NCBI GenBank assembly: GCA_964291215.2
Contig: OZ219791.1
Location: forward strand, 800,001-864,000
DNA length: 64,000 bases
Origin: Alphaproteobacteria bacterium
GTDB taxonomy: Bacteria; Pseudomonadota; Alphaproteobacteria; MPNO01; UBA830
Direction: 5' to 3'
The notes below the pieces were generated by a model. That model had not been told where the DNA came from, searched no databases, and saw only the letters and a program-made list of their open reading frames with translations. The translations under genes and the position numbers were made by a program. Each line of letters opens with the position of its first letter. Within the stretch, counting starts at the first letter, position 1. Of the stretch, positions 9,666 to 62,120 are shown piece by piece.

Positions 9666-11183
9666 TCAGGTCTCCTTCGCACGGATGGGTGCTGCGAGAG
9701 CCCGCTCGCGGGCTGCGGCATGATCGACAATCGGTGCGGGGTAGGTCTCGCCCAGGGTGCCGCCGCTGGCGGCAAGCCGGTCGGGAGGCGCCGTCCAAGG
9801 TTTGTGAATCCACCGGTCCGGGAGGGCGGCGATCTCGGGAATCCAGCGGCGCACATAGGCGCCTTCGGGATCGAATTTCTGTCCCTGCACGACCGGGTTG
9901 AAGATACGATGGTACGGGGCTGCGTCCGCTCCCGAACCGGCGACCCACTGCCAGTTTCCGGGGTTGTTCGCCGGATCCGCGTCGACCAGCATGTCCCAGA
10001 ACCAGGCCTCGCCCTCGCGCCAGTCAATGAGCAGGTGCTTGACCAGGAAGGATGCGGCCACCATACGGGCGCGGTTGTGCATCCAGCATGTATGCCGGAG
10101 TTCCCGCATGCCGGCATCGACCATCGGGTAGCCGGTCAGGCCCCGCCGCCAGGCATCTAGGCCGTGCGGATCGGAACGCCACGGAAACGAATCGAACCGG
10201 CCGCGCCAGTTCCGGGTCGCGATCTCCGGCCAATGAAACATCAGGTGATGGTTGAATTCGCGCCATGCGAGTTCGCGCAGGAACGCTTCGGCCGCCTTGG
10301 CGTGGGGCCCCGAACATATCCGAAGGGCCGCTGTCGCGCGCCACACCTCGGCCGGAGCGATCTCGCCCCAATGCAGATGCGGCGAAAGCCTCGAGGTGCC
10401 GATTCGGTCGGGGCGATCGCGGTCGTCGGGATAGGAGATCAACCCGTTGGCCAGGAACTGCCCGAGGCGCGCATGCGCCGCCGCTTCGCCGGGCGTCCAG
10501 GTTTCCGCAAGCCCGGCTGTCCGGTCCGGTGGCGAGGCAAGCAGTCCGAGATCGTCGAGCCTGCCGTCCTCGATGCCGTCAAGCGGCCTGATCGCGGTTA
10601 CTGCGCGCGTCGCCGGCGGCGGCCGGTACATCTTTCGCAGGCAATTCCAGAAGGGTGTGAAGACGCGGTACGGGGTGCCTGCGCCAGTGAGTACTGCGCC
10701 GGGTTCCGTCAGGAGGAAGCTGTTGAAGGTCCGGACTTCGACGCCGTCTGACGCGAGTGCGGTTTCGAGGGCAGCATCCTTGGCGGCCACTGCCGGTTCC
10801 GGGCTGCGGTTCCAGAACACTGTCCGTGCGCCGGTCTCGCGGGCGAGCTTCCTGATGGCCGCCGGCCCGCGCCGTAGCACGAGGCTGGTGCCTGCTGCCC
10901 GGAGGTCGTCGCCGAGCGCACGGAGGCTGTGATGCAGCCACCAGCGCGAGGCGCCGCCGGGCGGTCGGCCGCCGTCTCCGTCGAGAACGAACAGCGGGAT
11001 CACCGGCGCACCGGAGGTGGTGGCGGCCGTCAGCGCCGGATTGTCGCGCAGCCTCAGATCCCGGCGGAACCGGACGATGGCCGCGTTTCGGGAACCGATC
11101 TCTGCTACTCCTTCTTCGTGGACTGCTGCTTTACCGTTTTCGGCGACAGCCGTCACGCTCGGGAACGAAATTCCGGAGCGCAC
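9666..11183 (-). CDS. phrB: Class I CPD DNA photolyase, possibly decaying; start uncertain
   Basis: RRDLRLRDNPAL, TSRLSPHLHWGE, TGYPMVDAGMREL, MHNRARM, DADPANN, WQWVAG, RIFNP. Confidence 0.85.
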   Translation of the reverse strand: MRSGISFPSVTAVAENGKAAVHEEGVAEIGSRNAAIVRFRRDLRLRDNPALTAATTSGAPVIPLFVLDGDGGRPPGGASRWWLHHSLRALGDDLRAAGTSLVLRRGPAAIRKLARETGARTVFWNRSPEPAVAAKDAALETALASDGVEVRTFNSFLLTEPGAVLTGAGTPYRVFTPFWNCLRKMYRPPPATRAVTAIRPLDGIEDGRLDDLGLLASPPDRTAGLAETWTPGEAAAHARLGQFLANGLISYPDDRDRPDRIGTSRLSPHLHWGEIAPAEVWRATAALRICSGPHAKAAEAFLRELAWREFNHHLMFHWPEIATRNWRGRFDSFPWRSDPHGLDAWRRGLTGYPMVDAGMRELRHTCWMHNRARMVAASFLVKHLLIDWREGEAWFWDMLVDADPANNPGNWQWVAGSGADAAPYHRIFNPVVQGQKFDPEGAYVRRWIPEIAALPDRWIHKPWTAPPDRLAASGGTLGETYPAPIVDHAAARERALAAPIRAKET

Positions 11184-11222
11184 GGGCGCGAAGGCGAGGG
11201 GTCGCCGTTCAGCCGACGGCGA

Positions 11223-11783
11223 TCAGTCCTGTTCCAGCTCGCTGTCCCAGTAGAGGAAATCCCGCCAGCTCTCGTGCAGGTAATTCGGCGGGAACGCCCG
11301 TCCGTTCCGCTGCAATGCATGATTAGTCGGCTCGCGCGGCGGCGGCGACGGGACCATCCCGCATTCCTGCGGCATGCGGTCTCCCTTGAGAAGGTTGCAG
11401 TCCGAACACGCGGTGACGACGTTGGTCCAGGCGGTCTGACCGCCGCGCGACTTCGGGATGACATGGTCGAAGGTCAACTCCGAGGTTGACGGCGCGTCGC
11501 CGCAATACAGGCAAGCGAACCGGTCGCGCAGGAACACGTTGAAACGGGTGAAGGCCGGGCGTCGCGACAGCGGCACGTAACGTTTGAGCGCAATGACGCT
11601 CGGAAGGCGCATGGCGCAACTCGGCGAGCGGATCTCGCGTTCGTATTCCGAGACGATGTTCACGCGTCCGAGGAACACGGCCTTCACTGCATCCTGCCAG
11701 CACCACAGCGACAGGGGGAAGTAGCTCAGCGGCCGGAAATCGGCGTTGAGGACCAATGCAGGACAATCTTGCGCCGCAGACAT
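11223..11783 (-). CDS. HNH endonuclease (conserved alphaproteobacterial type)
   Basis: PALVLNADFRPLSYFPLSLW, RDRFACLYCG, DHVIP, NVVTACSDCNLLKG. Confidence 0.9.
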   Translation of the reverse strand: MSAAQDCPALVLNADFRPLSYFPLSLWCWQDAVKAVFLGRVNIVSEYEREIRSPSCAMRLPSVIALKRYVPLSRRPAFTRFNVFLRDRFACLYCGDAPSTSELTFDHVIPKSRGGQTAWTNVVTACSDCNLLKGDRMPQECGMVPSPPPREPTNHALQRNGRAFPPNYLHESWRDFLYWDSELEQD

Positions 11784-12370
11784 CGTTCCGGCTGTCCCCA
11801 AGCACTTTCGGCGGGAAGTGCCCGCCACAACAGGCAGATTATCCCGAACTCCGGCGACAGGCAATGCGGCCACGCACAGTTTCCGGGCACAATGCGTTCT
11901 CTGCATGCGCGCCGGCTGTTCGGGCGAGCGGGTGTTGCGGCGTCTCGACGGCGACGGTCGCGCCGAAGAAAATCCTGCCGTCATCGGAATACTGCCCGCT
12001 CACACGCAGGCGCAAACTTCCGTGCAGCATGCGTCTTGTCCGGGAGTCGGCTCGGACGGCCACGGTGCGGATTGCTGCGAACATTGGCTGCAATCCGGCG
12101 ATCAGTAACCGTTCCAGTCTGAGGACACTGCCGAGCTCGACATGACCGGCGCGGGCTTCACCCTCAAAACACGTTGGCGGCCCCATAGCAGACCTGAACG
12201 GCTGGCAGTCGCCGAAGCATTGGTCTGTATGCGTTCTTGAAGGGGGGTAACTGCTCACCCCCTGGTTCCGGCTTGATGTCGGGGTAGAGCAACGAACGGG
12301 TTTTCGTGGAGATTTGACACTGCATGCCGATTCGTTTAGTGGTGGTAATCGAGAACGACGGGGACCGCCA

Positions 12371-12499
12371 GTGAACTACTTTGGATCGAAGGCGACGAGC
12401 GGGCTGTGCCAGCTGCTTCCGGGGCTCCAGCCTCCGCATGATCTGTATGTGGAAACGCATCTCGGAGGCGGCGCGCTGATGAAGCGCAAGGCCGGGTGA
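12371..12499 (+). pseudogene. N-terminal fragment of a Dam/D12-class adenine methyltransferase inside the IS66 left end
   Basis: VNYFGSKATSGLCQ...PPHDLYVETHLGGGALMKRK; its TGA overlaps the transposase ATG. Confidence 0.65.
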
Positions 12500-13432
12500 T
12501 GGCGACGGTCAACGCGGCGCGCGAGGAGTTCGAAGCGGCCAAGACCGCGGCGCTGCCGGCAAGGTGCCGAAAGAGGCCGTGATCCGCGTCTTCGTCATCC
12601 TGCTCGACATCCTCATCGTCGTCCTTCTGGAGAAAACCACGCACGAGCCGGAACTCCGGTCTGCCGCCGTCACAGACGGACGAGAGCGTGCCGGAAGCAA
12701 GGGCCCGAAGCCGAACCAGCAGATGGGCGACAACCTGCCATCGTCGAGGAGACGGTCGCGGCCTGCGACGCCTGCGGCGCCGACGGCCCCGTCGAGCGCC
12801 GCACGACATCGTGTTCGAGGTCGTCGAGCGCCGCGCCGAGATCAAGGAATGCCCGAAGTGCAAGGCCCGGTTCCCCGACAACATCCCGTGCAGTACGGCA
12901 TCCAGGCCCTTGTCCCTGCTGGTCGCCCGGATGCTGTCCCTGCGCCGTCGCGCTCGTGCAGGCGATATCAAGCTCTCCGAGGCCTCGGCCATGCTTTCAC
13001 GATGCGTCATGGGAGGAGGCCGCCGTGGCGCACCTCCTGCAACGCCCGATGTCGACGATTTCGGATCAACAGCAAGTGGCTCCATGTCGTCGGGACGTGC
13101 AAGTTCCCGCACCGCAAGCAAGAGATCGGCCCGTGCTACAAGGGCGTCCTGGGCCTCGTACATGGCAGTGTAGCCACCAGCGGCAGCCACCTGCTGCGCG
13201 AACTGACCTTTGTCGTCGAGGCTGCCGCGCGACTGATGAAGAGCCTGCTCCCTGCCACAAGGTCAACAAGAGCGCATCCAAAACCCTGAACGACGCCGGG
13301 CGCAAGCGCTACCGCACCATCAGGGCGCCAGGGAACTGCCCGACATCCCGCCGAAAGGAAAACGCATCGCAAACGCGCACAACCTGCACGAACGTCTCGT
13401 GAAACACGAAAACCTGCGCTTCACAGACGACC

Positions 13433-15130
13433 ATCGCGGTAGGGAACCGGGTTACCCCCCGCACAGAACCGGACGTGCGCTGTTCGCATCCGGCTCCTCC
13501 CCTGACGACAAGGCGCTGGTTTGGCCACGGGTGGCGGATGCTGGCTCAGTGGGCAGCGGTGAGGGTGTCTATGTCCCCGGTGAAGTCCTTTTGGGAGCGT
13601 CGCCGAAGGGCACGCAGCTGTTTGCATTGGTGTATGAACTTCTGCAGGCTGCTTCCTGGAACGGCGTAGTAGCAGCCGTTGATAACTCACCACTTGGCCG
13701 TTTCGTGCCGGTTATCGTGCCACCGCCTGCGCAAGGCCTCCTTGATCCGCCGCAGGGTGCGGCGGATCCGTTTGCGAGATGGTTTGCGACCGACCCTGAA
13801 CCTGCCTTTCCTCGTCTGTTCGCAGAAGTGCGTCATGCCGAGGAAGTCGAACGTCTTGCCCACGCTTCCGGCGGTTTGCTCTGGCAAACCGACCGAACTC
13901 GATGATTTTCCGGGTGCAGTTCAAGTGGGCCAGTCTCTCCCCAAGGTCTCAGCGCCGCGCGTCGCCCAGACGCTGAAAGCCGCACACGAAGTCATCCGCA
14001 TAGCGGACAATGATCGTGTCGCCTCCAGCCATCCGCTTGCGCCAGTGGTTCTGGAACCAGTCGCACGTAGTGCAGGTAGACGTTCGCAAGGCATGGCGAT
14101 ACAATCGCCCCTTGCGGTGTTCCCTTGCCCGTATCCGACCAGTCGGTCCCTTCCATGACGCCGGCGTTCAGCCACTTGATGATCAGACCCCCCGATCCGT
14201 TTCCCGAGCATCGCGACCAGATGGTCGCGGTCGAGATTGTCGAAGAACCCACGGATGTCGGCGTCAACGATCCAGTTGACCTTCCGCCGTTCCACCGTGA
14301 CGGCATCGAGCGCATGATGCGCCCTGGCCGGAAGCCGTAACTAAACCCGAGGAACTCCGTCTCGTAGAGCGGCACCAGAATCACACCGCCCGCTGAAGAA
14401 TCTTGTCCTCCAGCGAGGCAATGCCAAGCGGTCGTTGCCCTCCATCCTCCTTGGGTATGTAAACCCCGGAGGCGCCCGGTACGCACCCCTGTGCACACGG
14501 GCGTGCAGGCAGTTCCACACCCTCCGCATACGCTTGCCACACAACGCCGTCCACGCCCGCCGCCGCGTCCTTCCTCAAGGAATGGAACGCATCGTGCAGA
14601 GTGTCGACCGTCACGTGGTGGAGTAAAGACGCTCTTCCGGGTTCCTCTTCGCTACCTGCGTTCAGCCGCCTGTGACCCCCGCTTCTGCGCGCGGCGCGGG
14701 CTTTGGCCAACCGCATTGCCCTTCCCTCCAGCAACTCCGCAGGCTCCGAAGAACCCTTGTTCGCCGCCTTCAACGGTACTATGGCCGAATCTGACTTCTC
14801 GTTCATCATCGGTTTACGGATTAGTTCCTTTCCTCTGCGGCCCCTCCACGACAGAGGGGCAATTGGAAGACCTCCCAGGTCCCTGCTTCGGCGCGTGCCA
14901 TGGTTCTCGGACCCCGCGGAGCCCCCCTCACCAACGCGGCTCGTTGCCTTCGGCCACGACCTCGGCACTCCGGTTTCAAAGCATCTCGTGGCTCAATAGC
15001 CTGCCGCTCCCCAACGCTTCGCCTGGCGCCTCACGACGCCCGACGCATGGTTCACGGAGAAAGTGGTGGTTAGCCTCTCTTCCTACCGGGACTTGCACCT
15101 GGCCACATTCCACCAGTTAGCCTGGCGCAC
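13433..15130 (-). mobile_element. Group II intron (IIB-like) with frameshifted RT/maturase and no En domain
   Basis: 5' GTGCGCCAGG; domain V GAGCCGGATGCG...CGCACGTCCGGTTC; 3' CCCTACCGCGAT; RT remnants RPLGIA, FSYGFRPG, TPQG, FDFLG; removal restores the IS66 reading frame FTDDPDVSFTNN. Confidence 0.92.
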
Positions 15131-15385: not shown

Positions 15386-15970
15386 ATGCCGATCACCGCC
15401 GATTTAACGATTCGCGAAACCGCGGCTCTGTCGGGGTTTTCGAAGATAACCGTGGCAAAGTCCCTGGAAGTAGGCATTTTGTGCGCTGTAGATGCTCCGG
15501 CCCGCCTTCGCGGCGGGGCGACACGCTACCTCCCAATTCGTGCCGTGGCCTATTTCAGCTCCCTCAAGGCCGCCAGTCTCACTGACTTTCTCATGCGCCA
15601 CAAGCGGGTTATCCGGGAGCATCTGGTTAGCCTTGAGCTTCTACGCCTTGAAGTGATCGAATTCGCGCGCGGTACGGTGCTCGACCTGAAGTACCTGGCC
15701 GCAGACTCGCTGTGCGAAGGCGAGCGCTACCGCGAAGCCCGGAAGCGCTACATCACCTCCGATGCGGACATTCTGGGAGGCACGCCGGTAATCAGGGGAA
15801 CCCGCCTGACGGTCTATGCGATCTTGGCACGGCTGCAGGGCGGCGATACCGTCGACGATCTCGAAGCGGACTACCCGGAGCTGCCTCGCGAGGCGTTCAT
15901 GGCCGCCGCACTCTACGCCCATCCGCTTCTGGGACGTCCGTCGGGCAGGCCTTGGCGAAACGTCGCCTGA
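15386..15970 (+). CDS. DUF433-domain antitoxin-like protein with N-terminal HTH
   Basis: ITSDADILGGTPVIRGTRLTVYAIL...LEADYPEL; directly upstream of a PIN toxin. Confidence 0.8.
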   Translation: MPITADLTIRETAALSGFSKITVAKSLEVGILCAVDAPARLRGGATRYLPIRAVAYFSSLKAASLTDFLMRHKRVIREHLVSLELLRLEVIEFARGTVLDLKYLAADSLCEGERYREARKRYITSDADILGGTPVIRGTRLTVYAILARLQGGDTVDDLEADYPELPREAFMAAALYAHPLLGRPSGRPWRNVA

Positions 15971-16112: not shown

Positions 16113-17362
16113 CACATCCATCCCATGCTAATCACCTGAATCTAAAGTTCGTGGCATAAGTTTTGTTCGACGCGGAGACAGAAGCGCTTGACGGCGGCGA
16201 GGATTTCGTCGGCTGATTTGGTCCACTTGAAGGGCTTGGGATTTTCGTTGTGGGTTGAAGGCCCGAATGTCGGTTTCGAGTTGCAAGGTCGAGCGGCCAC
16301 GTTGCAACTGCTTGCGGGTCAGTTCGGCGAACCAGCGCTCGACCTGCACGAGGCGGATGTCGGCGTGAAGTGGACGTGCCAGTGCGGCCGCCGCGCCAGC
16401 CAGACCGCGGCGGTTTTGTGGGTGGCGTAGTTGTCCATGACGATGTCGAGGCCGTCCGGGACATTGCAGTCGATCACCTTGAGGAAGTCGAGGAACTCCT
16501 TGGCCCGGTGGCGTCTGTTGCCGATGACCGCGCCGGTGGCGATGTCGAGCGCAGCGAACAGCGAGGTCGTTCCGTTGCGCTTGTAGTCATGGGTGCGCCG
16601 CTCAGGGATGCCGGGCAGGACCGGCTGGGTGCGGGCCTGGCTCTTTTCGTCGACGCCCAGCGCGCGATCCGGCGGCGAGAGGCCGACGATGTGCGGACCT
16701 TATCGACGAAGTGCGGATCACGGGAGAGCTTGAACGTCTCGGCCCGTTGCGGCTGCAGGCGCCCCAGATGCGCCAGATCGACGTCAGCCCCGCCTCCTTC
16801 GCCATCGAGCGCAGCGACCAGTGGGTCGCGGGCGTCGAGGTGAGCGTGCGCTCGATCACTTCCGCCACCTTCTCGTCCGCGATGCTCCGCGGGCGTCTCG
16901 GCTCAGCCCCTCGATGCGGTCCTTGACAAAGCGCCTGCGCCACTTGCCGACGGTGTGCACGCCGATCTCTGCGGCCACCGCCTTGTTGCCAAGCCCGTCC
17001 GCGCAACGCAGGATTATGCGGCCGACAGCGAGCGCGCCACACGGTGGCGGCGAACCTGCGCCTCCAGATACGACCGATCACTCAAGACCAGCACCGCCAA
17101 GGGCCGTCCCGTGGCATCGCCATGACCTCCGTGTTCACACTCCGACCGCCATCATACAATCATACTTACTTCAGTTCCAGATGACTAATTCGGAGACGCG
17201 AAATCCGAATGTGTTGGGGTTCGGCTCATCACAGATCGCCTCCTTGATCGCAATTTTCGTGTCAAGAAGGCCCCATCGAGTCTTGGGAACGCGATTGCAG
17301 CGCGACGCAAACTGGAAAAATCTCGCCAGTCGTCGCTGGATTGGCAGCGTGGGATCATCGTG
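16113..17362. mobile_element. MITE copy 1 (ISAs1-type ends), interrupted by IS630
   Basis: TIRs CACATCCATCCCATGCT / revcomp CACGATGATCCCACGCT; 9-bp TSD CCACG(T/A)GGT; homologous to 17693-17884. Confidence 0.8.
16128..17188 (-). mobile_element. IS630-family element, degenerate
   Basis: CTAA at both ends; remnants [43 protein letters not shown]. Confidence 0.85.
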
Positions 17363-23667: not shown

Positions 23668-23674
23668 CACGGCC

Positions 23675-42265: not shown

Positions 42266-43516
42266 CTAGTAGTATAACATTATTGGATTGACGAATATAG
42301 TGACTTCAGTTTCGTTCGGGCATCCTTCGTCGTGAAACGCCAGTCGACAGTGACATCGGCCGCATTGCGCCGTTCCGCCCACGCCGCCGTCTCCTGCCGC
42401 ATGGTGTCTCTGTCGGGAATGCGTCGCCGAAGGCATTGCCGCGACAGCGCACCGATCTCGATTTCGGCCATGTTGAGCCAGCTTCGGCGTGTAGCGAAAC
42501 TCGAACCGCTTTCGCACCCGCCTCCTCGGGCTCGAAGGCTTCATACAGCGACTGTGCGTGTTCAGATTGTCCAGCACGATCTTCCTGTCGGGGAAATGGA
42601 TGTCGGCAAGCTCCCGGATGAAGTGCGCCCAGTCCCGCGGCGGTCGGTGACTTTCACCGTGCGCCAGTTCTCGTTGGGCGCAAAGGCCATGAAGAGGTTG
42701 GCCGTGCCGTTGCGCTCATATTCATAGTCGACCACCTCCGGCTGACCGGGGGATGCGGGTTTCCTGCTGCCGGCTGGCCTCGCACACCAGCACCTCATCC
42801 CCGGCAAAGTCCCGCTGATAAATGTCAAGTACGTCCGCCGCTACGAACTGTGCGCTCCGGTGCGGTGGAATGCACCAGTACTGCTTCAGCCACGGTTTGA
42901 TCTCTTTTTTTAGCGTCTTCCTGACCGTCTCTTCCGAAATGCGCTCGACAATCTCCATCTCCACCAGACGGCCGGCGAGCAGCTTCAGCGTCCACAGCCC
43001 TCGGGCGGGGACGAACAGGGCGACCAGCTTCGCCTCCATCGCCCCGTCCAGCCGTTTTGGCCGGCGGTTCACCTGCTCCTTGCGGCTGAGGGCGGCGTCC
43101 AGCCCCTCCAGGACGCAGCGCTTGCGCAAACGCTCGACCGTCGCCGTGCCCAGCCCTTGCGCAATGTCGGCATCGACAAGCCGAGCGCCGTCGCGCCCCT
43201 AGTCGGCCAACATCAGGATTTGTGCCCGGCGCCAGGCAGCCCCGGTGCCGTCGACAATTGCCTTCAGATCCTGGCGCTCCTGCGCTGAAAGGGTCACGCG
43301 GTAGAGCTTCCTGCCCCGAGAGTTGGCCATATGCGCCGCTCCTGTCATTGCGCCGAAGACCTGCGGGCATGCCCGTTGTCCGGACCTGCGCATGGGGCTG
43401 CCTGCCTGTTCGGCATCTGCCCGTGTGGATATCGACACTGTCCGGATTCCAACGGATGCCGACACGGAAATACTACCCACAAAAAAACCATCAATACAAT
43501 GCCGGTGGACTACTAG
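42266..43516 (-). mobile_element. IS630-family element copy A, degenerate
   Basis: CTAG at both ends; WTLKLLA, DYEYERNGTANLF, MAEIEIG; paralog of 59527-60752. Confidence 0.9.
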
Positions 43517-43770
43517 GCTAGCTCCGCCAAGTCCTGATCCTGGCTGAATATTACGGCTACATCGAGAGCGCCGTTGCGCGCGATTCGCACCATGTCGAGA
43601 CCAATCCGAAGGTCTGTTTCCTTCTCGCGCTGTGCCGGCACACCATGCGTCGTACCGTCCGGAAGCGGGACCCGCTCGGAGCGCGGTTTCCGGGAGGTCG
43701 CGAGAATCCCGACGCGGCTCATTGCGGTCGGGCACCGCGCCCGGCACGCCGGATCTTTCCTGGCGTCGGG
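43517..43770 (-). pseudogene. Internal fragment of an NYN-domain protein
   Basis: EKETDLRIGLDMVR...DVAVIFSQDQDLAE; cut by IS ends on both sides. Confidence 0.65.
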
Positions 43771-45872
43771 GTATCTCCTCACCCCTCCGCAGAGGCGGGT
43801 TTGGCGTTGTGCATCTTGATCATGTCGGCGGCGAGTGCGATCCGGATGGCGGCTGTAGCCGAGTGCGGCCATGGAGGTGAGATAGCTTGAGCTTCGGCAC
43901 CAGGCCTCGGCGTGGAGCCGGGTTCGGAAGCATCCGGACATCTTGACCTTTGCCATCCGGATTTTCTGCTCGCCGGTGTTGTTGGTGAAGCTGACGTCCG
44001 GGTGCGCCAGGCTAACTGGTGGAATGTTGCCGGGTGCAAGTCCCGGCAGGAAGAGAGGCTAACCACCACTTTCTCCGTGAACCATGCGTCGTGAGGCGTC
44101 AGGCGAAGCGTTGGGGAGCGGCAGGCGTGGGCCGGGCTATTGAGCCACGAGATGCTTTGAAACCGGAGTGCCGAGGTCGTGGCCGAAGGCAACACCCCGC
44201 GAGCCGCGTTGGTGAGGCGAGCGGGGGCTCCGCGGGGTCCGAGAACCATGGCCGAAGCAGGGACCTGGGAGGTCTTGCCCCTCTGTCGTGGAGGGGCCGC
44301 AGAGGAAAGGAACTATTCCGTAAACCGATGATGAACGAGAAGTCAGATTCGGCCATAGTACCGCTGAAGGCAGCGAACAAAGGTTCTCCGGAGCCTGCGG
44401 AGTTGCTGGAGGGAAGGGCAATGCGATTGGCCCGCGCCGCGCGCAGAAGCGGGGGTCACAGGCGGCTGAACGCAGGTAGCGAAGAGGAACCCGGAAGAGC
44501 GTCTTTACTCCACCACGTGATGTCCTGCACGACGCGTTCCATTCCTTGAGGAAGGACGCGGCGGCGGGGCGTTGTGTGGCAAGCGTACGCGGAAGGGGTG
44601 GAACTGGTTGACCTACACGACCGTGTGCACAGGGGTGCGTACCGAGCGCCTCCAGGGTCTACATTCCCAAGGAGGATGGAGGGCAACGACCGCTTGGCAT
44701 TGCCTCGCTGGAGGACAAGATTCTTCAGCGGGCAGTGTGATTCTGGTGCCGCTCTACGAAACGGAGTTCCTCGGTTTCAGCTACGGTTTCCGGCCGGGGC
44801 GCATCACGCGCTCGACGCCGTCACGGTGGAACGGCGGAAGGTCAACTGGATCGTTGACGCCGACATCCGTGGGTTCTTCGACAATCTCGACCGCGACCAT
44901 CTGATTGCGATGCTCGAGAAACGGATCGGGGGGTTATCCGGCTGATCATCAAGTGGCTGAACGCCGGCGTCATGGAAGGGACCGACTGGCAAGGGAACAC
45001 CGCAGGGGGCGATTGTATCGCCCTGCCTCGCGAACGTTTACCTGCACTACGTGCGACTGGTTCCAGAACCACTGGCGCAAGCGGATGGCTGGAGGCGACA
45101 CGATCATTATGCGGACGACTTCGTGTGCGGCTTTCAGCATCTGGGCGATGCGCAGCGCTTTCTCCGGGACCTTGGGGAGAGGCTGGCCCACTTGAACTGC
45201 ACCCGGAAAATCATCGAGTTCGGTCGGTTTGCCAGAGCGAACCGCCGGAAGCAGGGCAAGACGTTCGACTTCCTCGGCATGACGCACTTCTGCGAACAGA
45301 CGAGGAAAGGCAGGTTCAGGGTCGGTCGCAAACCGTCTCGCAAACGGGCACCCTGCGGCGGATCAAGGGGGCCTTGCGCATGCGATGGCACGACAACCGG
45401 CACGAAACGGCCAAGTGGTGAGTTATCAACGGCTGCTACTACGCCGTCCCGGGAAGCAGTCAATCCCTGCAGGGGTTCATACACCAATGCAAACGGCTGC
45501 TCATGCGTGCCCTTCGGCGACGCTCCCAAAAGGACTTCACCGGGGACATAGACACCCTTGCCACCGCCCACTGAGCCAGCATCCGCCACCCGTGGCCAAA
45601 CCAGCGCCTTGTCGTCAGGGGAGGAGCCGGATGCGAACAGCGCATGTCCGGTTCTGTGCGGGGGGACCGGGGCAACCCGGTTCCCTACCGCAATGTCGCT
45701 CATGAAGCGCAGGACGGACTCTTCGTGCCTTGCGAGACGCTCCTGGAGGTTGTGCGCGTTCGCAATCCGTCCGCGTTTTTCTTTCTGTCGGGGCGGGATT
45801 TCAGGCAGTTCCTTCGCCCCCCTCCCCGGTCAGGATGGTCCGGTATCGCTTGATGACGCTGCGACGGTCGGC
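43771..45872 (-). mobile_element. IS66-family 3' portion (divergent variant) containing a group II intron
   Basis: TIR GTATCTCCTCACCCC at 43771; VLRFMSD|PDVSFTNN...SGCFRT. Confidence 0.85.
44002..45694 (+). mobile_element. Group II intron copy 2, frameshifted RT
   Basis: Starts GTGCGCCAGG; YADD; domain V at about 45622-45657; ends CCCTACCGCAAT. Confidence 0.92.
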
Positions 45873-47869: not shown

Positions 47870-49777
47870 GTTCGGTTGAAAGGATGTGGACGGCGGTGAC
47901 GGCGTCGAAGGCGAGGCACTTCTTCAGATCGTCGGCCCTGTTGAGCCGGCGGTTTTTGATCCGGGTCCCGGTCTTCAGCGTGCGGAACTAGGTCTCGATG
48001 CTCCATCGCGTCCGGTACCAGCGCAGGACGGTCGCCGCGTGCACGGCCTCCGCTTGCGCCGGGCGCTCAGCAGCAGCAGCGCCTCGTCGCCGTCATCGGT
48101 CTTGCTGGCCGAGACCGCGAACATGGACACAGGTTCCGCGTCGCCCTCGCGTTGCGGCGGCGCCACCTCGACCTGTGCCGTGCGGATCTCGAGATGGACA
48201 ACGCGCTTCTTGCGGGCGCACGGGCCGGCGGCGGCCGGGATCGTCAGCTCCGTCACCGCCACGGGCCGCCGGGCCGCGACATGCTCCCACAGGCACTCCT
48301 CGTTGCCGTTGGGCGTCCGCACGCGCTGTCTCGCCGAGCGGCTCGCCCGCACCAGCAGCGCAGCCCCGGTGTCCACGGCATGGGCGAGCAGCTCCCGGAA
48401 GTCGCCCTCGCGGTCGCAGACCGAGACCACCCGCGTGTCCGGGCAGGCCGTCGCGAGCTCTCGTGCCCGCTCGAGACCGGCGACCCGGCGCCGGCTGTCC
48501 TCCCCGGGCTCCTGCCGGAAGGCCGCGTCCATCGTGAACAGGCCCAGGGGCCGGCCCTCCGGCGTCACCGCCAGACCGGCATGGGCGAGAATGTCGACGC
48601 TCCCCTTGTCGCCCCCGCCGATCCCGTCAGGACCCTTCGTCGACCCCGGGCCGCTGTAGTCGAGTGCCGTCGTGTCCTGTATCGCAAGGACAAGAGGCCC
48701 TGTCCGACAACGCTCGACTCGACATGCGCCTCCAGAACGTGCTCCATGGAGACCCTCGGGTTCGACAACAACCGGCAGGCGGCCTTCTGCTCCGCCTTCT
48801 CCGAAAAGATGACCGGCAGGTCCTCCCCCATGTTCTCCATCCAGGCCCGGCCCATGTCAACGATGCGCCGCCGCATTCGCCCGTCGGTATGGCGCGTGCG
48901 CCCGTACTCCCGCTCCGCCCAGTCCGCGTCAGTGCCGTCATAGGCGCCCGCCAAGGCGCCGAGTGGACGTCGCTGTGTCCCGTGGAGCGCCGCCCGCCAG
49001 CCGCTCTCCAGCGCCAGGACCCGCACCGTGCGAACCTCGCCGCGGCGCCCGCTGGTCCGCCCGGCCACGGTCCAGCCGGCGCAGTGGTAGCAGTAACCGC
49101 TGTGCTCCCACCGGACGCACCGCATAACGGGCCTCCCAGTCGTCGGCGATGCGCTCCGTCGCCATGCGCAGGACCCGGGAGGCCAGCCCGTAGACCCGGA
49201 CGCCGGGAAGCAGGAGAAACCGATGATGGCAGATCACGCGCCTGATGTTGGCGGCGCGGGCGTCGGCAGACCATCCGATCCACTTGTCCCGCGCCCGCAG
49301 CTGCCAGGTCGCGGACCCGAAGCCGATCCCGCCGAGCGTGCCGTGGTGCTGCGAGCGGACCCAGTAGCGCATCTGGCCGCCGGGCGAGCGCGCCCATCCC
49401 AGCGGGTGGTGCGTCGCCATCATCGCCTCCCAGAGCCGGCGATCGTCGGTGCCGCCCACCAGTTCGAGCGAGACCGGGCCGAGATCCTGCAGCAGGCAGG
49501 CGAGCTTGGTGTCGGGCACGTCATCGGACGGGACGGCGGGCACGACGGTCGGATCGGGGGTGCTCCGCGGCGGCGGAAGCTCGAGACCCACGCGCTCGGC
49601 GAGCGCCGGCAGCACCTTCGCTGCCGCCGACAGGCACGGACGACCAAGCGCGTTGCGCCAGCCGGTGCGCTCGCAAAGCTCGCGAGCCAAATCGTGACGG
49701 GTGGCGGCGGCGGAGCGCAACGCGCCAGCGAACCAGTCAAGTGTCTGTGAATCGAAATGGCGGAGACCGACCTGCAT
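47870..49777 (-). pseudogene. DUF4338 plus IS4/IS50(Tn5)-like transposase pseudogene
   Basis: WQLRARDKWIGW, RFLLLP...LASRVL, then DWAEREYG, VCDREGD, WSIET. Confidence 0.8.
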
Positions 49778-49818
49778 GCCCGCAAGCATGCACGAAACGA
49801 ATTACCTATACAAATCTG

Positions 49819-51299
49819 GTAACTGTTCACCCCCTGGTTCCGGCTTGATGTCGGGGTAGAGTAACGAACGGGTTTACGTGGAGATTTGACATTGCAGGCC
49901 GATTCGCTTAGTGGTGGTCATCGAGAACGACGGGGACCGCCAGTGGGCTACTTTGGATCGAAGGCGACGAGCGGGCTGTGCCAGCTGCTTCCGGGGCTCC
50001 AGCCCCCGCATGATCTGTATGTGGAAACGCATCTCGGAGGCGGCGTGCTGATGAAGCGCAAGGCCGGGTGATGGCGACGGGCGGCGCGCGAGGAGTTCGA
50101 AGCGGCCAAGACCGCGGCGCTGCCGGCAAGGTGGCGGAAGAGGCCGTCATCCGCGTCTTCGTCATCCTGCTCGACATCCTCATCGTCGTCCTTCTGGAGA
50201 AGACCACGCACGAGCCGGAACTCCGGTCTGCCGCCGTCACAGACGGACAAGAGCGTGCCGGGAGCAACGGCCCGAAGCCGAACCAGCAGATGGGCGACAA
50301 CCTGCGCAAGATCATCGTCGAGGAGACGGTCGCGGCCTGCGACGCCTGCGGCGCCGACGGCCCCGTCGATCGGGAGCGCCGCACGACATCGTGTTCGAGG
50401 TCGTCGAGCGTCGACGCCGAGGAATGCCCGAAGTGCAAGGCCCGGGGCCGGTTCCCCGACAACATCCCGTGCAGTACGGCATCCAGGCCCTCGTCATCAA
50501 CCTGCTGGTCGCCCAGATGCTGTCCCTGCGCCGTGCCGTTGCGTTCGTGCAGGCGATCTCTGGCATCAAGCTCTCCGAGGCCTCGGCTATGCTTTCACGA
50601 TGTGTCATGGGAGGAAGCCGCCGTGGCGCACCTCCTGCAACGCCCGATGTCGATGATTTCGGATCAACAGTAAGTGGCTCCATGTCGTGGGGCCCTGACG
50701 TGCAAGTTCCCGCACCGCAAGCGCGGGCAAGAGATCGGCCCGTGCTACAAGGGCGTCCTGGGCCTCGTATATGGCAGTGTAGCCACCAGCTGTGCGGTAG
50801 CCACCAGCTGCGCGAACTGACCTTTGTCGTCGAGGCTACCGCGCGACTGATGAAGGGCCTGCTCCGCGAGGTCTGCCACAAGGTCAACAAGAGCGCATCC
50901 AAGACCCTGAACGACGCCGGGCGCAAGCGCTACCGCACCATCAGGGCGCCAAGGAACTGCCCGACATCCCGACGAAAGGAAAACGTGGACGCAAGTCCGA
51001 CGCGCACAACCTGCACGAACGTCTCGTGAAACACGAAAACCTGCGCTTCATAGACAACCCCGACGTCAGCTTCACCAACAATGCCGGAGAACAGAAGATC
51101 AGGATGGCAAAGGTCAAGGTGTCCGGATGCTTCCGCTCCACGCAAAAGCATGGTGCCGGGGCTCAAGCTACCTCACCTCCATGGCCGCACTCGGCTACAA
51201 CCCACTCGTCGCCACCCAGATCGCCCTCGACGGAAAAGCCGCAGACATCATCAACGAGCACTATGGCCAATCAGAACCCAACAAGGGGTTAGTAGATAC
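49819..51299 (+). mobile_element. IS66-family element, intron-free paralog of 12247-15370, degenerate
   Basis: TIRs GTAACTGTTCACCCC / ...GGGGTTAGTAGATAC; perfect 8-bp TSD CAAATCTG; methyltransferase fragment at 49943-50071. Confidence 0.92.
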
Positions 51300-54181: not shown

Positions 54182-54227
54182 CGGTATGCTTGGAGTCGAA
54201 AAATCGAAACCGATAATGGAGGATATT

Positions 54228-56008: not shown

Positions 56009-56016
56009 GCGCCGCG

Positions 56017-56898
56017 ATGGACTTCGTCGAGATTTATTTCAACCTGTTCGCGGTGAGCCTCGTCCAGGGCGCGATCTTCGCTTTTCCCGCGCTCGCCGTG
56101 ATGATCCCCTTCCGCATGCTGGGGCTGCCCGACCTGACCTCGGAGGGTGCCTTTCCCTTCGGCGCGGCGATCGTGGCAACGGTCACGGTTGCGGGCTTCG
56201 ATCCGGTGCTCAGCCTGTCGGCGGCGGTCCTGTTCGGCTTCGTCGTAGGCGCCGCCACCGCGTTGATCCATATTTTTCTGCGGGTACCCTCACTGCTCGC
56301 CGGGATCATCGTGCTGACCATGCTGTTCAGCATCAATATCCGGGTTATGGGAAAACCAAATACCGCGCTCTTCGACAACGATTCGATCTTCACCCTGGCG
56401 CTCGGCGCCGACGGGGGCGAGCCGTGGACCCAATTCGTGCTGATCCTCGCCTTGGCACTTGTCTTTGTCGTCGTCTTCTACTGGTTCCTTAACACCGAAC
56501 TCGGCATGGCGCTCCGCTGCGTCGGCGCCAACCAGACGATGTCCCGCGCGCAGGGTATCCCAACGAACTGTTACATCGTCGCCGGGATCGCCATGGCCGG
56601 CGGGTTCAGCGCCTTCGGCGGCGCGGTGATGGCCCAGCACCAAGCTTATGCCGACGTCAATATGGGGGTCGGTGTGCTGATCGTCGGCCTGGCGGCGACG
56701 ATCCTGGGCGAGACCTTGGTCGGGCGCAGTACCCTGACCCGCCAGCTTGCCGCTCCGGTGATTGGATCGCTAGCCTATTTCCAGGTGGTGGCGGTGGCGC
56801 TCGCGCTCGGCCTGAAACCCTCCGACCTCAAGCTGCTCACCGGCCTATTCGTGCTGATCACGCTCGCCACTCCCATCCTCATGCGCGCGAAACGGTAG
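56017..56898 (+). CDS. ABC transporter permease
   Basis: PDLTSEGAFPFG; multiple TM helices. Confidence 0.88.
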   Translation: MDFVEIYFNLFAVSLVQGAIFAFPALAVMIPFRMLGLPDLTSEGAFPFGAAIVATVTVAGFDPVLSLSAAVLFGFVVGAATALIHIFLRVPSLLAGIIVLTMLFSINIRVMGKPNTALFDNDSIFTLALGADGGEPWTQFVLILALALVFVVVFYWFLNTELGMALRCVGANQTMSRAQGIPTNCYIVAGIAMAGGFSAFGGAVMAQHQAYADVNMGVGVLIVGLAATILGETLVGRSTLTRQLAAPVIGSLAYFQVVAVALALGLKPSDLKLLTGLFVLITLATPILMRAKR

Positions 56899-56939
56899 AC
56901 TTTATCCCGGCACGACATGACCTTGTATGATCGGGGCCC

Positions 56940-57626
56940 TCGGCGGGTATGCCGATGTCCTGTTGGTGGCAGCTCCCCAACAGCGCTTTTAATTTACCCT
57001 GCCGTGGATTCCATAAGCCGGGCCGTTGTTCAGGTATCGGCTGTTTTCCGGGCCGGCCGCCGTTCCAAATCGCGTCCCGCCACTTCCAGATAATCGGCGC
57101 CGTGAAGACCAGCCCGACGGCGAAGAAGTCTCTTGCGCTGGAGCAGGAGGTTGCGCCTTTGGGCCGGCTTCTTGCCGAGGCTGGCGTTGACGCGCGGAAG
57201 TTGTCGGCATGTCTCGTGTTGTTCCCGATCAGGTGCAACCGCTCAAACCGTTCCTCGCGGCGCCAGCCAATTCAATGGTCCCGCGGCGCACAGCTGAAGG
57301 CGCCCGTCTGCCAGCCCGCAGCGCCAATCCACCGTCCGCGCCAGGTGAACACGTAGCGCAGACCTCGACCGGCAAACTGCTTGAAACCAAGATAGTGATG
57401 ACGGTCAACCACACGGTTCCAGCGACACACCTCATCGGGTCGCGCAAGGCCCACAACCACATCCCGGAGCGTAAAACTCTCCGGCGTCGCCTCGAACAAA
57501 CCCGTTCACTGTCCCTCTATCACAACACCGGATGTCACGGCGCTTCACAAAAAGTCAACGAAAATGCGAATCATCCGGAACAAGCGGAACCAATCCTTCC
57601 AATAAACCCAGCGTGGGATAGTTTTG
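56940..57626 (-). mobile_element. ISAs1-type element A, 5' (DUF4338) remnant; left limit approximate
   Basis: End CAAAACTATCCCACGCT; HHYLGFKQFAGRGLRYV...WIGAAGW; paralog of about 61330-62030. Confidence 0.7.
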
Positions 57627-58101
57627 CCGCTGTCGCAAGGTGATCCCATGCTTGTTGATGTGATGTGATCGGAGTCCTGATCGCGGCGCGGGTTGACGCG
57701 TTCGAGGCTGCGATTTTGAGATTTGCTGACGCGCTGTTGCGGCGCGGGGTGCGATTGGTCGACCTATCCGGGGCGAGCGAGAGGCCTTGGTTGCCGGGCT
57801 CGAAAGCTTGCGGTTTCTGTCGGGGAGAGAGGCGCGGTCAGCCTGGTCTCGTGATTGCGTGCAGGACCTGCTTGCGCTTGTCCGCATGGTTGTGTCGACG
57901 AAGCTGTTGAAGGGTTTGGTCAGCTTGCGCTTGTTGTGGATGATGACGGCGATTGCGAGGGTGATCGCGTTGTTTGCGAACGCGTTCGGAGCATGGAGTC
58001 GTCTTCGCGGAAGGTGGCATCGCGGACATGATGATGGCTCTCGACTACCCAGTGTCCGCGATTCCATGCGAGCAACTGTTGCGGCGAGGCGCGTTCGACC
58101 G

Positions 58102-59457
58102 AGCATCCATGTTTCTTGGCAAGGTTTTTGCGGGTGTCTGTGGTGATGTTTTCTGTGGTTGTCCACAAGCGGTATGGGATTTGCTCTGCGATCGAGGCGA
58201 CATGAAGCTTGTGGTCCCGGCGGCGGGTTGCCGTCCATTGGTCACGTGAACGCGGCTACCTTGCCGTCCCCGGGCACGTGACCGTCCGGGTTCCAGGTGT
58301 CCCAAGGCGGTTCGATCTCCTTGATGTCGACCTCGACGATGATCTGCAGACATTCTCCCCAAGTCGTGTCGTAGAGGGAGACTGTCGATACAGTCCCGAT
58401 CGCGCTCTCGGCAGGGGTGAGGGCCATGAGGGTGGTCTCCTTCGCTCACTCACCGGTGCTTCAGGCAACGCTGCTGTCGCAGCAAGGTGTTCGCCAGAGC
58501 TTGCGCATCACGGCGACAATCGCGACCTTGCTTGCCGGCAGTCTTGAGGCGCTCGAACACGCTTGCCAGGTCCGCGTTGAAGCGGGCCGGTTGCGGCCAG
58601 GAGATCGCGTGGCCTTCGGCGCCCGCCACGGATGTGCCGAGCACCGTGGTCGTTGGCGCCACCCCGATCAAGGCTGCCGACGCTGCCGAGTTCGGGCATC
58701 CAGAAGGGCCGCGGCGGTCACCGGACCGGGGTCAGGATGACGTAGCTCTGCTCGGGATCACCGGCGATCACCGCTTTGATCGCCGCGCCGGCAATGCGGT
58801 CATCGAGATCGGCCGCTAAGGCCCTTGTGACGGTCTCGCCATCCACCTCATCTGCCACCTGCTTGGCGTCGACAAGCGCGGCACCAGGAGATCCTCCAGG
58901 CTCTTGAGGAAGGCGGAGCCACAGGCTCACCGTGCCGATCTTGGCGTCGAAGCGGTTGGCCCATCGCCTCGGCGAAGCGCCCGCAACGGGTTGACGAGAA
59001 TAACCTCGAAGCCCCGGTCATGAAGACACTGGTGAACCTTGCGGTGATAGCGGCCTGTCGCCCACCACCCGGCTCACCCCGAGGCCGCGAAGCCACCTGC
59101 CCGTGGCGTCGTCCGCAAAACAATGCGCCAGATGTCCAGACTGGCTGACCCCTGCTACTACCTTGACCATCGTCCCTTGCTCCTCGCCTTACGATGGGTT
59201 CAAACCCAAGCATCCATTCAGGACGCGAGGGACGTCAAGGGAGGTTGGCCGACCACACTCGGTCGCGGCTCTGTCAAGGTCGAAATGGCAACCTCCGCGG
59301 AGATCGTTTGATCTCCGCTCCCCTGTGCGTGTTCGCTCAGGGAAGCGGAATCTCTCTGCAACCATAAACCGGACGCTCTCCCACAGATCCACATTTCCCC
59401 GCCCCCAACTGCTGTGGATGATTTCATCATCAAGGGGACAAAACCTGGTCATATAAG
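58102..59457 (-). mobile_element. IS110-family element copy 2 (CT core)
   Basis: Removal restores the ISAs1 frame ATGAC-CT-CGGTCGAAC (M-T-S-V-E-R). Confidence 0.9.
59173..59442 (-). ncRNA. Predicted IS110 bridge RNA (copy 2)
   Basis: Same stems as copy 1; donor guide ATGGATGCT; target guide CGACCGAG complementary to its own flank. Confidence 0.78.
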
Positions 59458-59526
59458 GTCATGGCGTGTTCGGTTTTCCGGATTTCTTGAATTCGACGTG
59501 CCGAGTGACGCGGAAGATCTGCTTGA

Positions 59527-60752
59527 CTAGTAGTCCACCGGCATTGTATTGATGGTTTTTGGTGGGTAGTATTCCTGTGTCGGCATCCGTTGGAATCTGG
59601 ACAGTGTCGATATCCACACGGGCAAGATGCCGAACAGGCAGGCAGCCGCAGCCCCATGTGCAGGTCCGGACAACGGGAGCGGCGCAATGACAGGAGCAAC
59701 GTATATGGCCAACTCTCGGGGCAGGAAGCTCTACCGGGTGACCCTTTCAGCGCAGGAGCGCCGGGATCTGAAGGCGATTGTCGACGGCACCGGGGCTGCC
59801 TGGCGTCGGCGCCGGGCACAAATCCTGATGCTGAGGGGGCGCTTGTCGATGCCGACATTGCGCAAGGGCTGGGCACGGCGACGATTGAGCGCTTGCGCAA
59901 GCGCTGCGTCCTGGAGGGGCTGGACGCCGCCCTCAGCCGCAAGGAGCAGGTGAACCGTCGGCCGAAACGGCTGGACGGGGCGATGGAGGCGAAGCTGGTC
60001 TCGTCCCCGCCCGAGGGCTGTGGACGCTGAAGCTGCTCGCCAGCCGTCTGGTGGAGATCGTCGAGCGCATTTCGGAAGAGACGGTCAGGAAGACGCTAAA
60101 AAAAAGAGATCAAGCCGTGGCTGAACTGGTGCATTCCACCGCACCGGAGCGCACAGTTCGTGGCGGCGGACGTGCTTGACATTTATCAGCGGGACTTTGC
60201 CAGGGACGAGGTGCTGAGACCAGCCGGCAGCAGACGAAGGAAACCCGCATCCCTCGTCCCCCGGTCAGCCGGAGGTGGTCGACCATGAATATGAGCGCAA
60301 CGGCACGGCCAACCTCTTCATGGCCTTTGCGCCCAACGAGAACTGGCGCACGGTGAAAGTCACCGACCGCCGCGGGACTGGGCACACTTCATCCGGGAGC
60401 TTGCCGACGACCATTTCCCCGACAGGAAGATCGTGCTGGTCAATTTGAACACGCACAGTCACTGTATGAAGCCTTCGAGCCCGAGGAGGCGGGTGCGAAA
60501 GCGGTTCGAGTTTCGCTATACGCCGAAGCACGGAAGCTGGCTCAACATGGCCGAAATCGAGATCGGTGCGCTGTCGCGGCAGTGCCTTCGGCGACGCATT
60601 CCCGACCGCGACAGCATGCTGCGGGAGACCGTGGCGTGGGTCGAGCGCCGCAATGCGGCCGATGTCACTGTCGACTGGCGTTTCACGACGAAGGATGCCC
60701 GGACGAAACTGAAGTCACTATATCCATCAATATAATAATGCTAGACTACTAG
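59527..60752 (+). mobile_element. IS630-family element copy B, degenerate
   Basis: CTAG at both ends; YTPKHGSWLNMAEIE, WRFTTKDARTKL. Confidence 0.9.
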
Positions 60753-62120
60753 TTGATCATCTTCGCCAGCGGGCTGAAGATGGTGCGCTGGCGGCCATGG
60801 GCGGGCTTTTCGCTGTAGCGTCCCGTGCTCGCGGTCTTCCAGTTGATGCTCTCGAAGGTGCGTTGCCCTTGACCATCAGTCCGCGCGATGGGTCTCGATG
60901 ATCAGCCTCGCGGGTGGTGTGGAGCGCGTCGAGGGTGAGCAGACGGCCGGCAACCGGTGCCGTCTCGAGCGCGGCGTGGACGGCAGCGATCTCCCCGTCG
61001 TGATAGTTGAAGATCGAATACCGGCCAGCGAGACCGTCTCGTAATGATCCTCGCCGGTGCGGCCGCGCTTGCCGTCGACCGCGTTGCCGACCTGCGGCTG
61101 CGCGCCGCATCCTCGATCCATCCCGGGTCGGTGTTCTGCAGCACCCGGTGCACGGTCGATCTGGAGACCGGCTTGTCCCTGTTCTTCCATGCTGCTCCAG
61201 CTCCTTCTGCGTCGTAGTGCGCCGCCGCAACCGCACCGTGCCGGTTCGCAAGCCAGCAAAATCACGCACAGCACCGAGGCGATGCGGTGCCCCTGCGCGC
61301 GCCGGAAAGCGCCGCTGATAAATCGAGCGCAACTCCTGCGCCGACCAGCGGCGCCCGCAACTCCCACGCCACAGGAAGCGGCGAACGATCCCGCGTCACG
61401 ACGCAACGGAAACACGTAAAGATCCTTCGCCTCCCCGGTCGGCGCCCGCTGGCGCGCGCATGGCCCCTGCCAACGCACTCCCGGTTCGCCGCCTTGTACA
61501 TGGTGCCGCTGAACTTCGTCGGCGAAACAAACGACTCCGCAACAAGTAACGGATGGCCGTACGCAGCCTCCCAGTCGCCACCGAGACGCCGCACCATCCG
61601 CGACAACGCAAACGAGGCAAGGCCCGGAAACGACCACCAGGAACAACAAACCTCGTGTTGTTCCCGGCAACCGCCTGAACTGTTCCTCGCGGCGCCAGCC
61701 AATCCAACGGGTGCGCAGCTGAGGGCGCCCGTCTGCCAGCCCGCAGCACCAATCCACCGCCCGCGCCAGGTGAACACGTAGCGCAGATCCCGACCGGCAA
61801 ACTGCTTGAAACCAAGGATGACGGTCAACGACACGATTCCAGCGACATCAGGCCGCGCAAGGCGCACAACCACATCCCGGAGCACAAAACCCTCTGGAGT
61901 CGTCTCAAAAAAATCCGCTGCCTCCACGACAACGGATACTACGCCGCTTCACAAAAAGTCAGCGAAAATGCGAATCATCCTGAACAAGCAAAACCGACCC
62001 TTCCAACAAACCTGGCGTGGGATCGCCGTGCCGCCGTCGTCATGGAGGTTGCGCGCCATGGCCCGCTGCGGCATGGTGTGCAGATTCACCCCTCTGTCGG
62101 CAGAATTGGGCGTTCAGGCC

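What the first reader, a model, noticed from the sequence alone, without database searches (positions are those of the whole stretch)
10095..61484. CCGG versus CTGG/CCAG substitution hotspot: footprint of a CCGG methylase with Vsr-like repair
Seen: paralog pairs repeatedly differ at this one motif. IS66: 12927 CCGG vs 50513 CCAG. IS630: 43442/59597, 43271/59761, 42972/60040, 42801/60200. MITE: 17326/17848. Intron: 15099/44030 and several more. In unconstrained genes, codons expected to be Trp read C-CGG (Arg) at about 11070, 10521, 10095, 15613, 48395, 48485 and 61481, which points to net gain of CCGG; the expected Trp relies on my recollection of family consensus. Established: 5mC deamination converts CCGG to CTGG, and Vsr very-short-patch repair drives T to C in the cognate methylase context. 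Inference: an HpaII-like C5 methyltransferase and Vsr, encoded elsewhere, act as a context-specific mutator.
Basis: partly seen in the sequence, partly recalled or inferred. Interest (0 to 1): 0.7.

Follow-up and report, generated by a model that had tools for sequence, protein, structure and literature searches.

The report
Footprints of lost methylases and repair
Dead jumping-gene copies in this bacterium mutate faster at a few short DNA words, likely because DNA-methylating enzymes and a mismatch-repair enzyme passed through its lineage and were mostly lost; this is a known effect, and the methylated word is likely CCWGG rather than the CCGG first proposed.

Summary
The cited CCGG/CTGG/CCAG differences are all in the sequence, but the bias is modest: 13 of 149 CYGG sites differ in window paralogs against 202 of 4,783 overall. 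In 1,360 repeat copies genome-wide, C→T at CCGG is not a hotspot (observed/expected 0.9–1.2; only TCCGGA is raised). The reverse T→C at CTGG is about 2.4× raised, mostly at C[T]GGG (6×) and C[T]GGA (3×), not C[T]GGC. CCGG shows a net loss (209 lost, 135 gained), and orthologs against a sister genome show no CCGG asymmetry (p=0.93). The strong C→T hotspots are C[C]WGG and GA[C]GTC, seen in both data sets. The genome holds one intact C5 methylase of unknown target and no intact vsr, but a broken vsr lies in the wreck of a methylase–vsr cassette. Best reading: footprints of several transient methylases plus likely Vsr-type T:G→C:G repair at CC(W/N)GG-type sites. This is a known kind of effect. 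More striking, in passing: site-recurrent 5–7 bp deletions in nearly all repeats, which the scan noted before in another genome (e1-9773304).

The parts
12927..12930 (.). IS66 copy A: CCGG, minority allele (9 v 117 CCAG); a T>C gain in the C[T]GGG context read on the minus strand
50513..50516 (.). IS66 copy B: CCAG, majority allele
43442..43445 (.). IS630 copy A: CCGG inside TCCGGA; 26 of 67 aligned copies carry the CCAG allele (partner 59597)
59597..59600 (.). IS630 copy B: CTGG, likely a C>T loss in TC[C]GGA
43271..43274 (.). IS630 copy A: CTGG, minority allele (20 v 47); partner 59761 has CCGG
60040..60043 (.). IS630 copy B: CCAG, rare allele (62 copies have CCGG); partner 42972
42801..42804 (.). 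IS630 site tied 28:28 among copies, direction unclear; partner 60200
17326..17329 (.).
15099..15102 (.). Group II intron copy: CTGG private to this copy (1 v 68), a C>T loss; partner 44030
9666..11183 (-). Intact photolyase/cryptochrome-family ORF with W38R (11070), W221R (10521) and W363R (10095); two of the three CGG codons are shared with sister G001
15613..15617 (+). CCGGG here, CTGGG in G001: fits the C[T]GGG>C hotspot
48395..48398 (-). Repeat site, CCGGG on the minus strand in 9 copies, T allele in 1
48485..48488 (-). Repeat site, CCGGG on the minus strand in 6 copies, T allele in 1
61481..61484 (-). Repeat site, CCGGG v CTGGG on the minus strand, 23:21 among copies

Best explanation
The repeats carry C>T hotspots at C[C]WGG and GA[C]GTC and a T>C hotspot at C[T]DGG-type sites, likely left by several C5 methylases that came and went on mobile restriction-modification cassettes and by a likely Vsr-type repair enzyme, now lost, that would turn T:G mispairs into C:G. 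Shown: the context rates, the absence of an intact vsr, one intact C5 methylase, and a vsr fragment in a cassette wreck. Inferred: (1) 5mC deamination made the C>T hotspots; (2) a Dcm/EcoRII-type CC(W/N)GG methylase was among the visitors; (3) its Vsr over-repaired T:G in C[T]NGG-like words, best at C[T]GGG and less at C[T]GGA. GACGTC is the best candidate target of the resident methylase, but that is untested.
For: De novo scan of the repeat events: the top T>C motif is C[T]nGG (108 v 36, p=3e-22) and the top C>T motifs are C[C]TGG and C[C]nGG. T>C by centre base: CTGGG 47 v 8.0, CTTGG 36 v 7.2, CTAGG 4 v 0.7, CTCGG 20 v 20.1; D[T]AGG 12 v 2.9. C>T at C[C]GGG is low where T>C is highest (17 v 31 for low-frequency alleles). 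Outgroup-polarised codons: C allele in 8 of 21 C[T]GGG columns, 0 of 19 C[T]GGC, 4 of 86 controls. Independent ortholog set: GACGTC 194:23 and CCWGG 304:111 against a background of 1.47. GACGTC count is halved against G001 (229 v 453). vsr fragment at G000:C2 about 2,870,050-2,870,290, minus strand, 53% identity over 34 aa plus 50% over 32 aa in another frame, inside a roughly 880-bp segment missing from G001. Of 46 related loci of 5 kb or more, 37 hold a C5 methylase and 33 a vsr; 15 of the 45 loci with a methylase hold a Dcm-like one by motif, and one of these hits a solved enterobacterial cytosine methylase (3lx6) at 4e-104 and scores 417 bits on the Dcm model PRK10458, below its cut-off of 710. 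Vsr-driven CTAGG>CCAGG and CTWGG>CCWGG are in print (PMC2715241 and 10.1101/070839, passages).
Against: No CCWGG-type methylase and no intact vsr is in the assembly (99.3% complete), yet the hotspots persist in the youngest copies (C[T]GGG 15 v 1.5, C[C]TGG 29 v 4.1). A contig of run X4, about 90% identical in the flank, also covers the vsr fragment and stops near the same place, so the gene may have broken long ago. The fragment's best matches sit beside methylases that are not Dcm-like (L231, L185). C[T]CGG is not raised, C[T]TGG falls to 7 v 3.7 for low-frequency alleles, and C[T]GGA lies outside CCNGG. Singletons alone give only 15 v 9.5 at CTGG (p=0.06). Orthologs show no significant CCGGG shift (74:65, p=0.14). 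Some repeat families overlap and gene conversion may blur the trees, so the p-values overstate.
Confidence: 0.55

Rival explanations
1. One reading: an HpaII-like C5 methylase marks every CCGG and a cognate Vsr repairs it so well that only the T>C over-repair shows.
For: T>C at CTGG is 2.3-2.6x raised whatever the 5' base. A Vsr that cuts a CTGG/CCGG substrate exists in Neisseria (PMC6116569, passages). TC[C]GGA is a C>T hotspot (34 v 9.1).
Against: At CCGGC neither direction is clearly raised (T>C 26 v 20.5, and 0 of 19 polarised columns; C>T 49 v 44.9). There is no ortholog asymmetry (680:468, p=0.93), a net loss of CCGG, and no such gene pair was found.
Confidence: 0.1
2. The T>C excess is an intrinsic context effect of polymerase error or MutS/MutL repair in this lineage, unrelated to Vsr. 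Only the C>T hotspots come from methylases.
For: No intact vsr, while the signal is present in the youngest copies. T>C is also raised at [T]A generally (1.5-2.3x). At fourfold sites T before GGG is low in both G000 and G001 (6.2% and 5.2% v 8-10% before GGC). mutS and mutL have open frames.
Against: The effect needs both the 5' C and the 3' GG (D[T]GGG only 1.4-1.7x) and mirrors the CCWGG word. C>T is reduced at the same CCGGG sites.
Confidence: 0.25
3. The motif is an adenine-methylation site on the other strand (YCC[A]G) from one of the many type I/IIG methylases, and m6A raises A>G.
For: G000 has 17 matches to PF02384 and 6 to PF01555. The motif is asymmetric.
Against: At GANTC, the presumed CcrM site (label inferred), transversions are raised (18 v 4.9) and T>C is not (20 v 15.8). 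At C[T]GGR transversions are not raised (5 v 6.5). In E. coli, GATC methylation gives mostly A:T>T:A (PMC13250602, part 2 of 7).
Confidence: 0.06
4. Artefact: basecalling errors at methylated motifs, or mis-polarised old subfamily alleles.
For: High-frequency alleles do inflate reverse rates (C[T]TGG 5.0x falls to 1.9x under the frequency filter).
Against: The same letters stand in contigs of two runs at four unique sites. The signal holds per column and with protein outgroups.
Confidence: 0.04

Closest known systems
E. coli Dcm + Vsr (very-short-patch repair)
   Same: C>T hotspot at the inner C of CCWGG (PMC13250602) and T>C over-repair in the T:G form of the site (PMC2715241; 10.1101/070839).
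   Different: Here the strongest T>C word is C[T]GGG, outside CCWGG. Neither gene is intact in the genome, and the system sat on a mobile cassette, not in the core genome.
Methylation-induced hypermutation by strain-specific R-M methylases (Cherry 2018, J Bacteriol; seen only as a reference in PMC10333322; text not held; content recalled)
   Same: Lineage-specific C>T excess and motif depletion at methylase targets, here CCWGG, GACGTC and the weaker TCCGGA, CTCGAG and GGCGCC.
   Different: Inferred here from IS copies in one genome and one sister genome rather than thousands of isolates; methylation itself was not observed.
HpaII/MspI-type CCGG methylase with a Vsr such as Neisseria V.NgoAXIV (PMC6116569, passages)
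   Same: Would give T>C at CTGG.
   Different: Predicts an effect at all CCGG flanks and a resident gene pair; neither is seen.
Caulobacter ScmA (YGCCGGCR) with unlinked Vsr-like VsrA, DUF559 (PMC12907096, passages)
   Same: Alphaproteobacterial C5 methylation of a CCGG-containing word with an unlinked repair gene.
   Different: No DUF559 match in G000; GC[C]GGC is only 1.4-1.7x raised.

Membership tests
HpaII-type CCGG methylase + Vsr | C>T excess at the inner C of CCGG regardless of flanks | tested here: not met
   190 v 160 overall, 104 v 95 for VC[C]GGB (no 5' T, no 3' A), 106 v 117 for low-frequency alleles; orthologs p=0.93
HpaII-type CCGG methylase + Vsr | T>C excess at CTGG regardless of flanks | tested here: not met
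   raised at GGG (6.0x) and GGA (2.8x), not at GGC (1.3x; 0 of 19 polarised columns)
HpaII-type CCGG methylase + Vsr | C5 methylase gene with an adjacent intact vsr | tested here: not met
   one C5 methylase, beside a restriction-enzyme ORF; no intact vsr in G000
HpaII-type CCGG methylase + Vsr | 5mC at CCGG | not testable with these tools
   only assembled contigs are served
Dcm/EcoRII-type CCWGG methylation footprint | C>T excess at both C[C]AGG and C[C]TGG | tested here: met
   52 v 20 and 113 v 21 in repeats; 44:14 and 260:97 in orthologs
Dcm/EcoRII-type CCWGG methylation footprint | Dcm-like gene in the genome | tested here: not met
   PF00145, tblastn and a custom HMM find only the non-Dcm-like gene at C2:3207502
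Very-short-patch repair footprint | T>C excess in the T:G form of the methylated word (C[T]WGG, N[T]WGG) | tested here: inconclusive
   C[T]TGG 5.0x overall but 1.9x (not significant) for low-frequency alleles; C[T]AGG 4 events; D[T]AGG 4.1x; D[T]TGG 1.05x; the strongest word, C[T]GGG, is non-canonical
Very-short-patch repair footprint | vsr gene in the lineage | tested here: inconclusive
   C-terminal fragment only, frameshifted; time of loss unknown

The most novel reading that the evidence does not exclude
An unrecognised T:G-to-C:G repair activity, not detectable as Vsr, DUF559 or NucS, is still acting in this genome at C[T]GGR, and it works on heteroduplexes between hundreds of IS copies. 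The same heteroduplex traffic would spread 5-7 bp deletions that mismatch repair cannot see, so that one process drives both the substitution bias and the site-recurrent deletions.
Probability: 0.1. Interest if true: 0.7.

Novelty: new member of a known kind. Interest (0 to 1): 0.3.

Why it matters
As a mechanism this is known: methylases leave C>T hotspots and Vsr leaves a T>C bias. The value is as a method and a record. A genome that is about 35% decaying repeats keeps a readable history of methylases and a repair gene that have since been lost, and it predicts testable targets (GACGTC or CCWGG) for an uncharacterised methylase family with thousands of homologs. The 5-7 bp deletion pattern seen alongside deserves more attention than the substitution bias.

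Tried and rejected
Raw per-copy counts against a simple majority consensus were dominated by subfamily alleles and were replaced by tree-based, capped, per-column and outgroup-polarised counts. Vsr searches PF03852, TIGR00632 and PF04480, and NucS PF01939, found nothing intact in G000. GT[C]GAC, the target recalled for HgiDII/BbrUII, is not hot (11 v 11.7), so the family label of the resident restriction gene (105 bits against a cut-off of 550) does not give its target. Named homologs of the resident methylase gave no specificity. Word counts in 87 kb of G042, which holds an 85% identical homolog, against three congeners were too noisy to assign a target. The class of methylase of the wrecked cassette could not be fixed. 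No fixed-distance motif or strong CCGG/CCWGG link was found at deletion sites (CCGG 105 v 88, CCTGG 16 v 24). No RNA holder was listed. A whole-genome tblastn timed out and was redone against family alignments. Cherry 2018 and 2021 are not held. Paper searches showed no report of this lineage's spectrum or of a 5-7 bp deletion peak; they cover open-access text only, and no supplements were read. Look-ups of earlier findings by place and by CCGG/Vsr words were empty.
Full report
Setting. The window is G000:C2:800001-864000 of a 6.15 Mb, 64% GC, two-contig genome, 99.3% complete. Its closest photolyase relatives are alphaproteobacterial, and small-share holders include sponge metagenomes, so a sponge-associated alphaproteobacterium is my inference. 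About 35% of the genome is repeated DNA, with up to about 270 overlapping hits per position. A sister genome, G001, is syntenic at 91-94% identity.

Observation. All cited words are present. In the window's own paralog alignments CYGG differs at 13 of 149 sites against 202 of 4,783 overall, a twofold excess with nominal p=0.0097 that does not survive correction for about 60 contexts. Among all genome copies, CCGG is the majority allele at four of the seven cited pairs, tied at one and the minority at two, so these pairs do not show a net gain. The photolyase Trp>Arg changes are real, but two are shared with G001. The other four sites (15613, 48395, 48485, 61481) all read C-C/T-GGG on the strand that gives the Arg codon. 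Contigs from runs X1 and X2 carry the same letters at four unique sites.

Repeat spectrum. I aligned 1,360 non-overlapping copies of 46 repeat families (1.36 Mb), built trees, and counted 9,092 terminal-branch changes with clean flanks; repeats not gathered into families were left out. Expected counts are per family, with events capped at three per column. C>T at CCGG is 190 v 160, driven by TCCGGA (34 v 9.1); with neither a 5' T nor a 3' A it is 104 v 95, and for alleles at 15% frequency or less it is 106 v 117. The strong C>T words are C[C]TGG (113 v 21), C[C]AGG (52 v 20) and GA[C]GTC (15 v 2.5), then CT[C]GAG (20 v 5.6) and GG[C]GCC (42 v 19). T>C at CTGG is 129 v 53, split as GGG 48 v 8, GGA 39 v 14, GGC 26 v 20.5 and GGT 16 v 11. 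Counting each column once gives 44 v 17; singletons alone give 15 v 9.5, p=0.06. With distant protein homologs as outgroup, the C allele appears in 14 of 67 C[T]GG columns (8 of 21 GGG, 3 of 15 GGA, 3 of 12 GGT, 0 of 19 GGC) against 4 of 86 control columns, p=0.002; a few of those alignments are in non-coding frames. Raw flux is 209 losses and 135 gains of CCGG. Some families overlap and gene conversion may occur, so the p-values are optimistic.

Ortholog check. I fetched 1.49 Mb of G001's roughly 5 Mb and aligned 0.955 Mb. CYGG ranks 46 of 64 contexts and splits 680:468 (T in G000 v T in G001), the same as the genome-wide 22,653:15,500 (p=0.93). GACGTC splits 194:23, CCTGG 260:97 and CCAGG 44:14. 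This comparison has no outgroup, but the GACGTC/GATGTC ratio is 0.35 in G000 against 0.78 in G001 and 0.46-0.92 in four further relatives, which points to loss in G000.

Genes. PF00145 finds one C5 methylase, intact, at C2:3207502-3208599, behind an intact ORF of about 700 aa with a weak BbrUII/HgiDII-family match. None was found in G001, which is 93% complete. Its target is unknown. No intact vsr, DUF559 or NucS was found; mutS and mutL have open frames. A search with ten relatives' Vsr proteins found the C-terminal part of a vsr in two frames at C2 about 2,870,050-2,870,290. It lies in a segment of about 880 bp missing from G001, with a small broken ORF and the first 40 or so codons of a 620-aa gene. 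In the 80 best metagenome loci for the small ORF (of 97 confirmed, from a capped list), 45 hold a C5 methylase and 41 a vsr; among the 46 loci of 5 kb or more the counts are 37 and 33. In 15 of the 45 the methylase is Dcm-like by motif, but the vsr fragment matches best the vsr genes beside the other class. A contig of run X4 also holds the fragment, so the break may be old.

Mechanism. The C>T words are best read as 5mC deamination at targets of several methylases that passed through the lineage (inferred; I put this part at about 0.85). The T>C pattern is C[T]DGG plus C[T]GGA, with C>T low at CCGGG. That is what a Vsr tuned to a CC(W/N)GG system would leave if it tolerated a central G (inferred; about 0.55). 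In E. coli, Vsr stimulates CTAGG>CCAGG (PMC2715241, passages) and has been proposed to convert CTWGG to CCWGG (10.1101/070839, passages). CCWGG is a known C>T hotspot, while GATC methylation gives A:T>T:A (PMC13250602, part 2 of 7 and passages). The internal control agrees: GANTC shows raised transversions only, and C[T]GGR raised transitions only. An HpaII-type system fails because CCGGC shows neither C>T nor T>C excess. The main weakness of my reading is timing: the hotspots persist in the youngest copies although the genes are gone. Recent loss, an unassembled replicon or gene conversion could each explain this; none was tested.

Verdict. It is a new instance of a known kind; interest 0.3. 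The 5-7 bp deletions are listed separately.

Noticed in passing
All repeats in the window (e.g. 12246-13432 v 49818-51059; 42266-43522 v 59521-60752) and genome-wide: Repeat copies are riddled with 5-7 bp deletions: 9,185 of 11,256 clean deletions in 1.47 Mb, with a sharp drop below 5 (47 at 4 bp) and a second bump at 11-13 bp. The same deletion recurs in up to 93% of a family's copies, yet sites are almost unlinked (mean r 0.03-0.10). Microhomology is only modestly raised and no fixed motif was found. Against G001, 5-7 bp gaps number 166 in G000 v 23. Bacterial pseudogene deletions are reported to follow a power law (PMC6054270, passages). From memory, MutS-type repair misses loops of 5 nt or more, which would fit the cut-off. 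Recurrent mutation v biased gene conversion is unresolved.
   Followed up: partly
G000:C2:3200933-3208599 (L171): Intact 1,481-aa ORF with a weak N6-methylase match, followed by an intact restriction-enzyme-like ORF of about 700 aa and the only C5 methylase. The methylase has over 6,000 homologs at E<=1e-60 and no named specificity in the 120 listed.
   Followed up: partly
G000:C2:2869930-2870810 (L170:9930-10810): Wreck of a cassette type made of vsr, a C5 methylase, a small protein of about 70 aa with no Pfam match, and a protein of about 620 aa weakly matching PADLOC PDC-M33A; common in metagenomes.
   Followed up: partly
window 9666-11183 (-): The photolyase/cryptochrome ORF is open but has lost three Trp residues conserved in most homologs, and has C at position 366 where 24 of 24 homologs have G; possibly relaxed selection.
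   Followed up: no
genome-wide: At least nine open ORFs with near-full matches to the type I methylase model PF02384 in G000, against one such match in G001.
   Followed up: no
genome-wide, GANTC sites in repeats: T>A and T>G changes are 3.7x raised at GAN[T]C (18 v 4.9), a likely adenine-methylation transversion hotspot.
   Followed up: partly
window 13433-15095 (-) and 44037-45694 (+): Two decayed group II intron copies inserted in IS66-type repeats.
   Followed up: no
window 12373-12480 and its paralog near 49945: The IS66-type repeat starts with a short broken ORF that by my recollection resembles the start of an adenine methylase (sequence); not tested.
   Followed up: no
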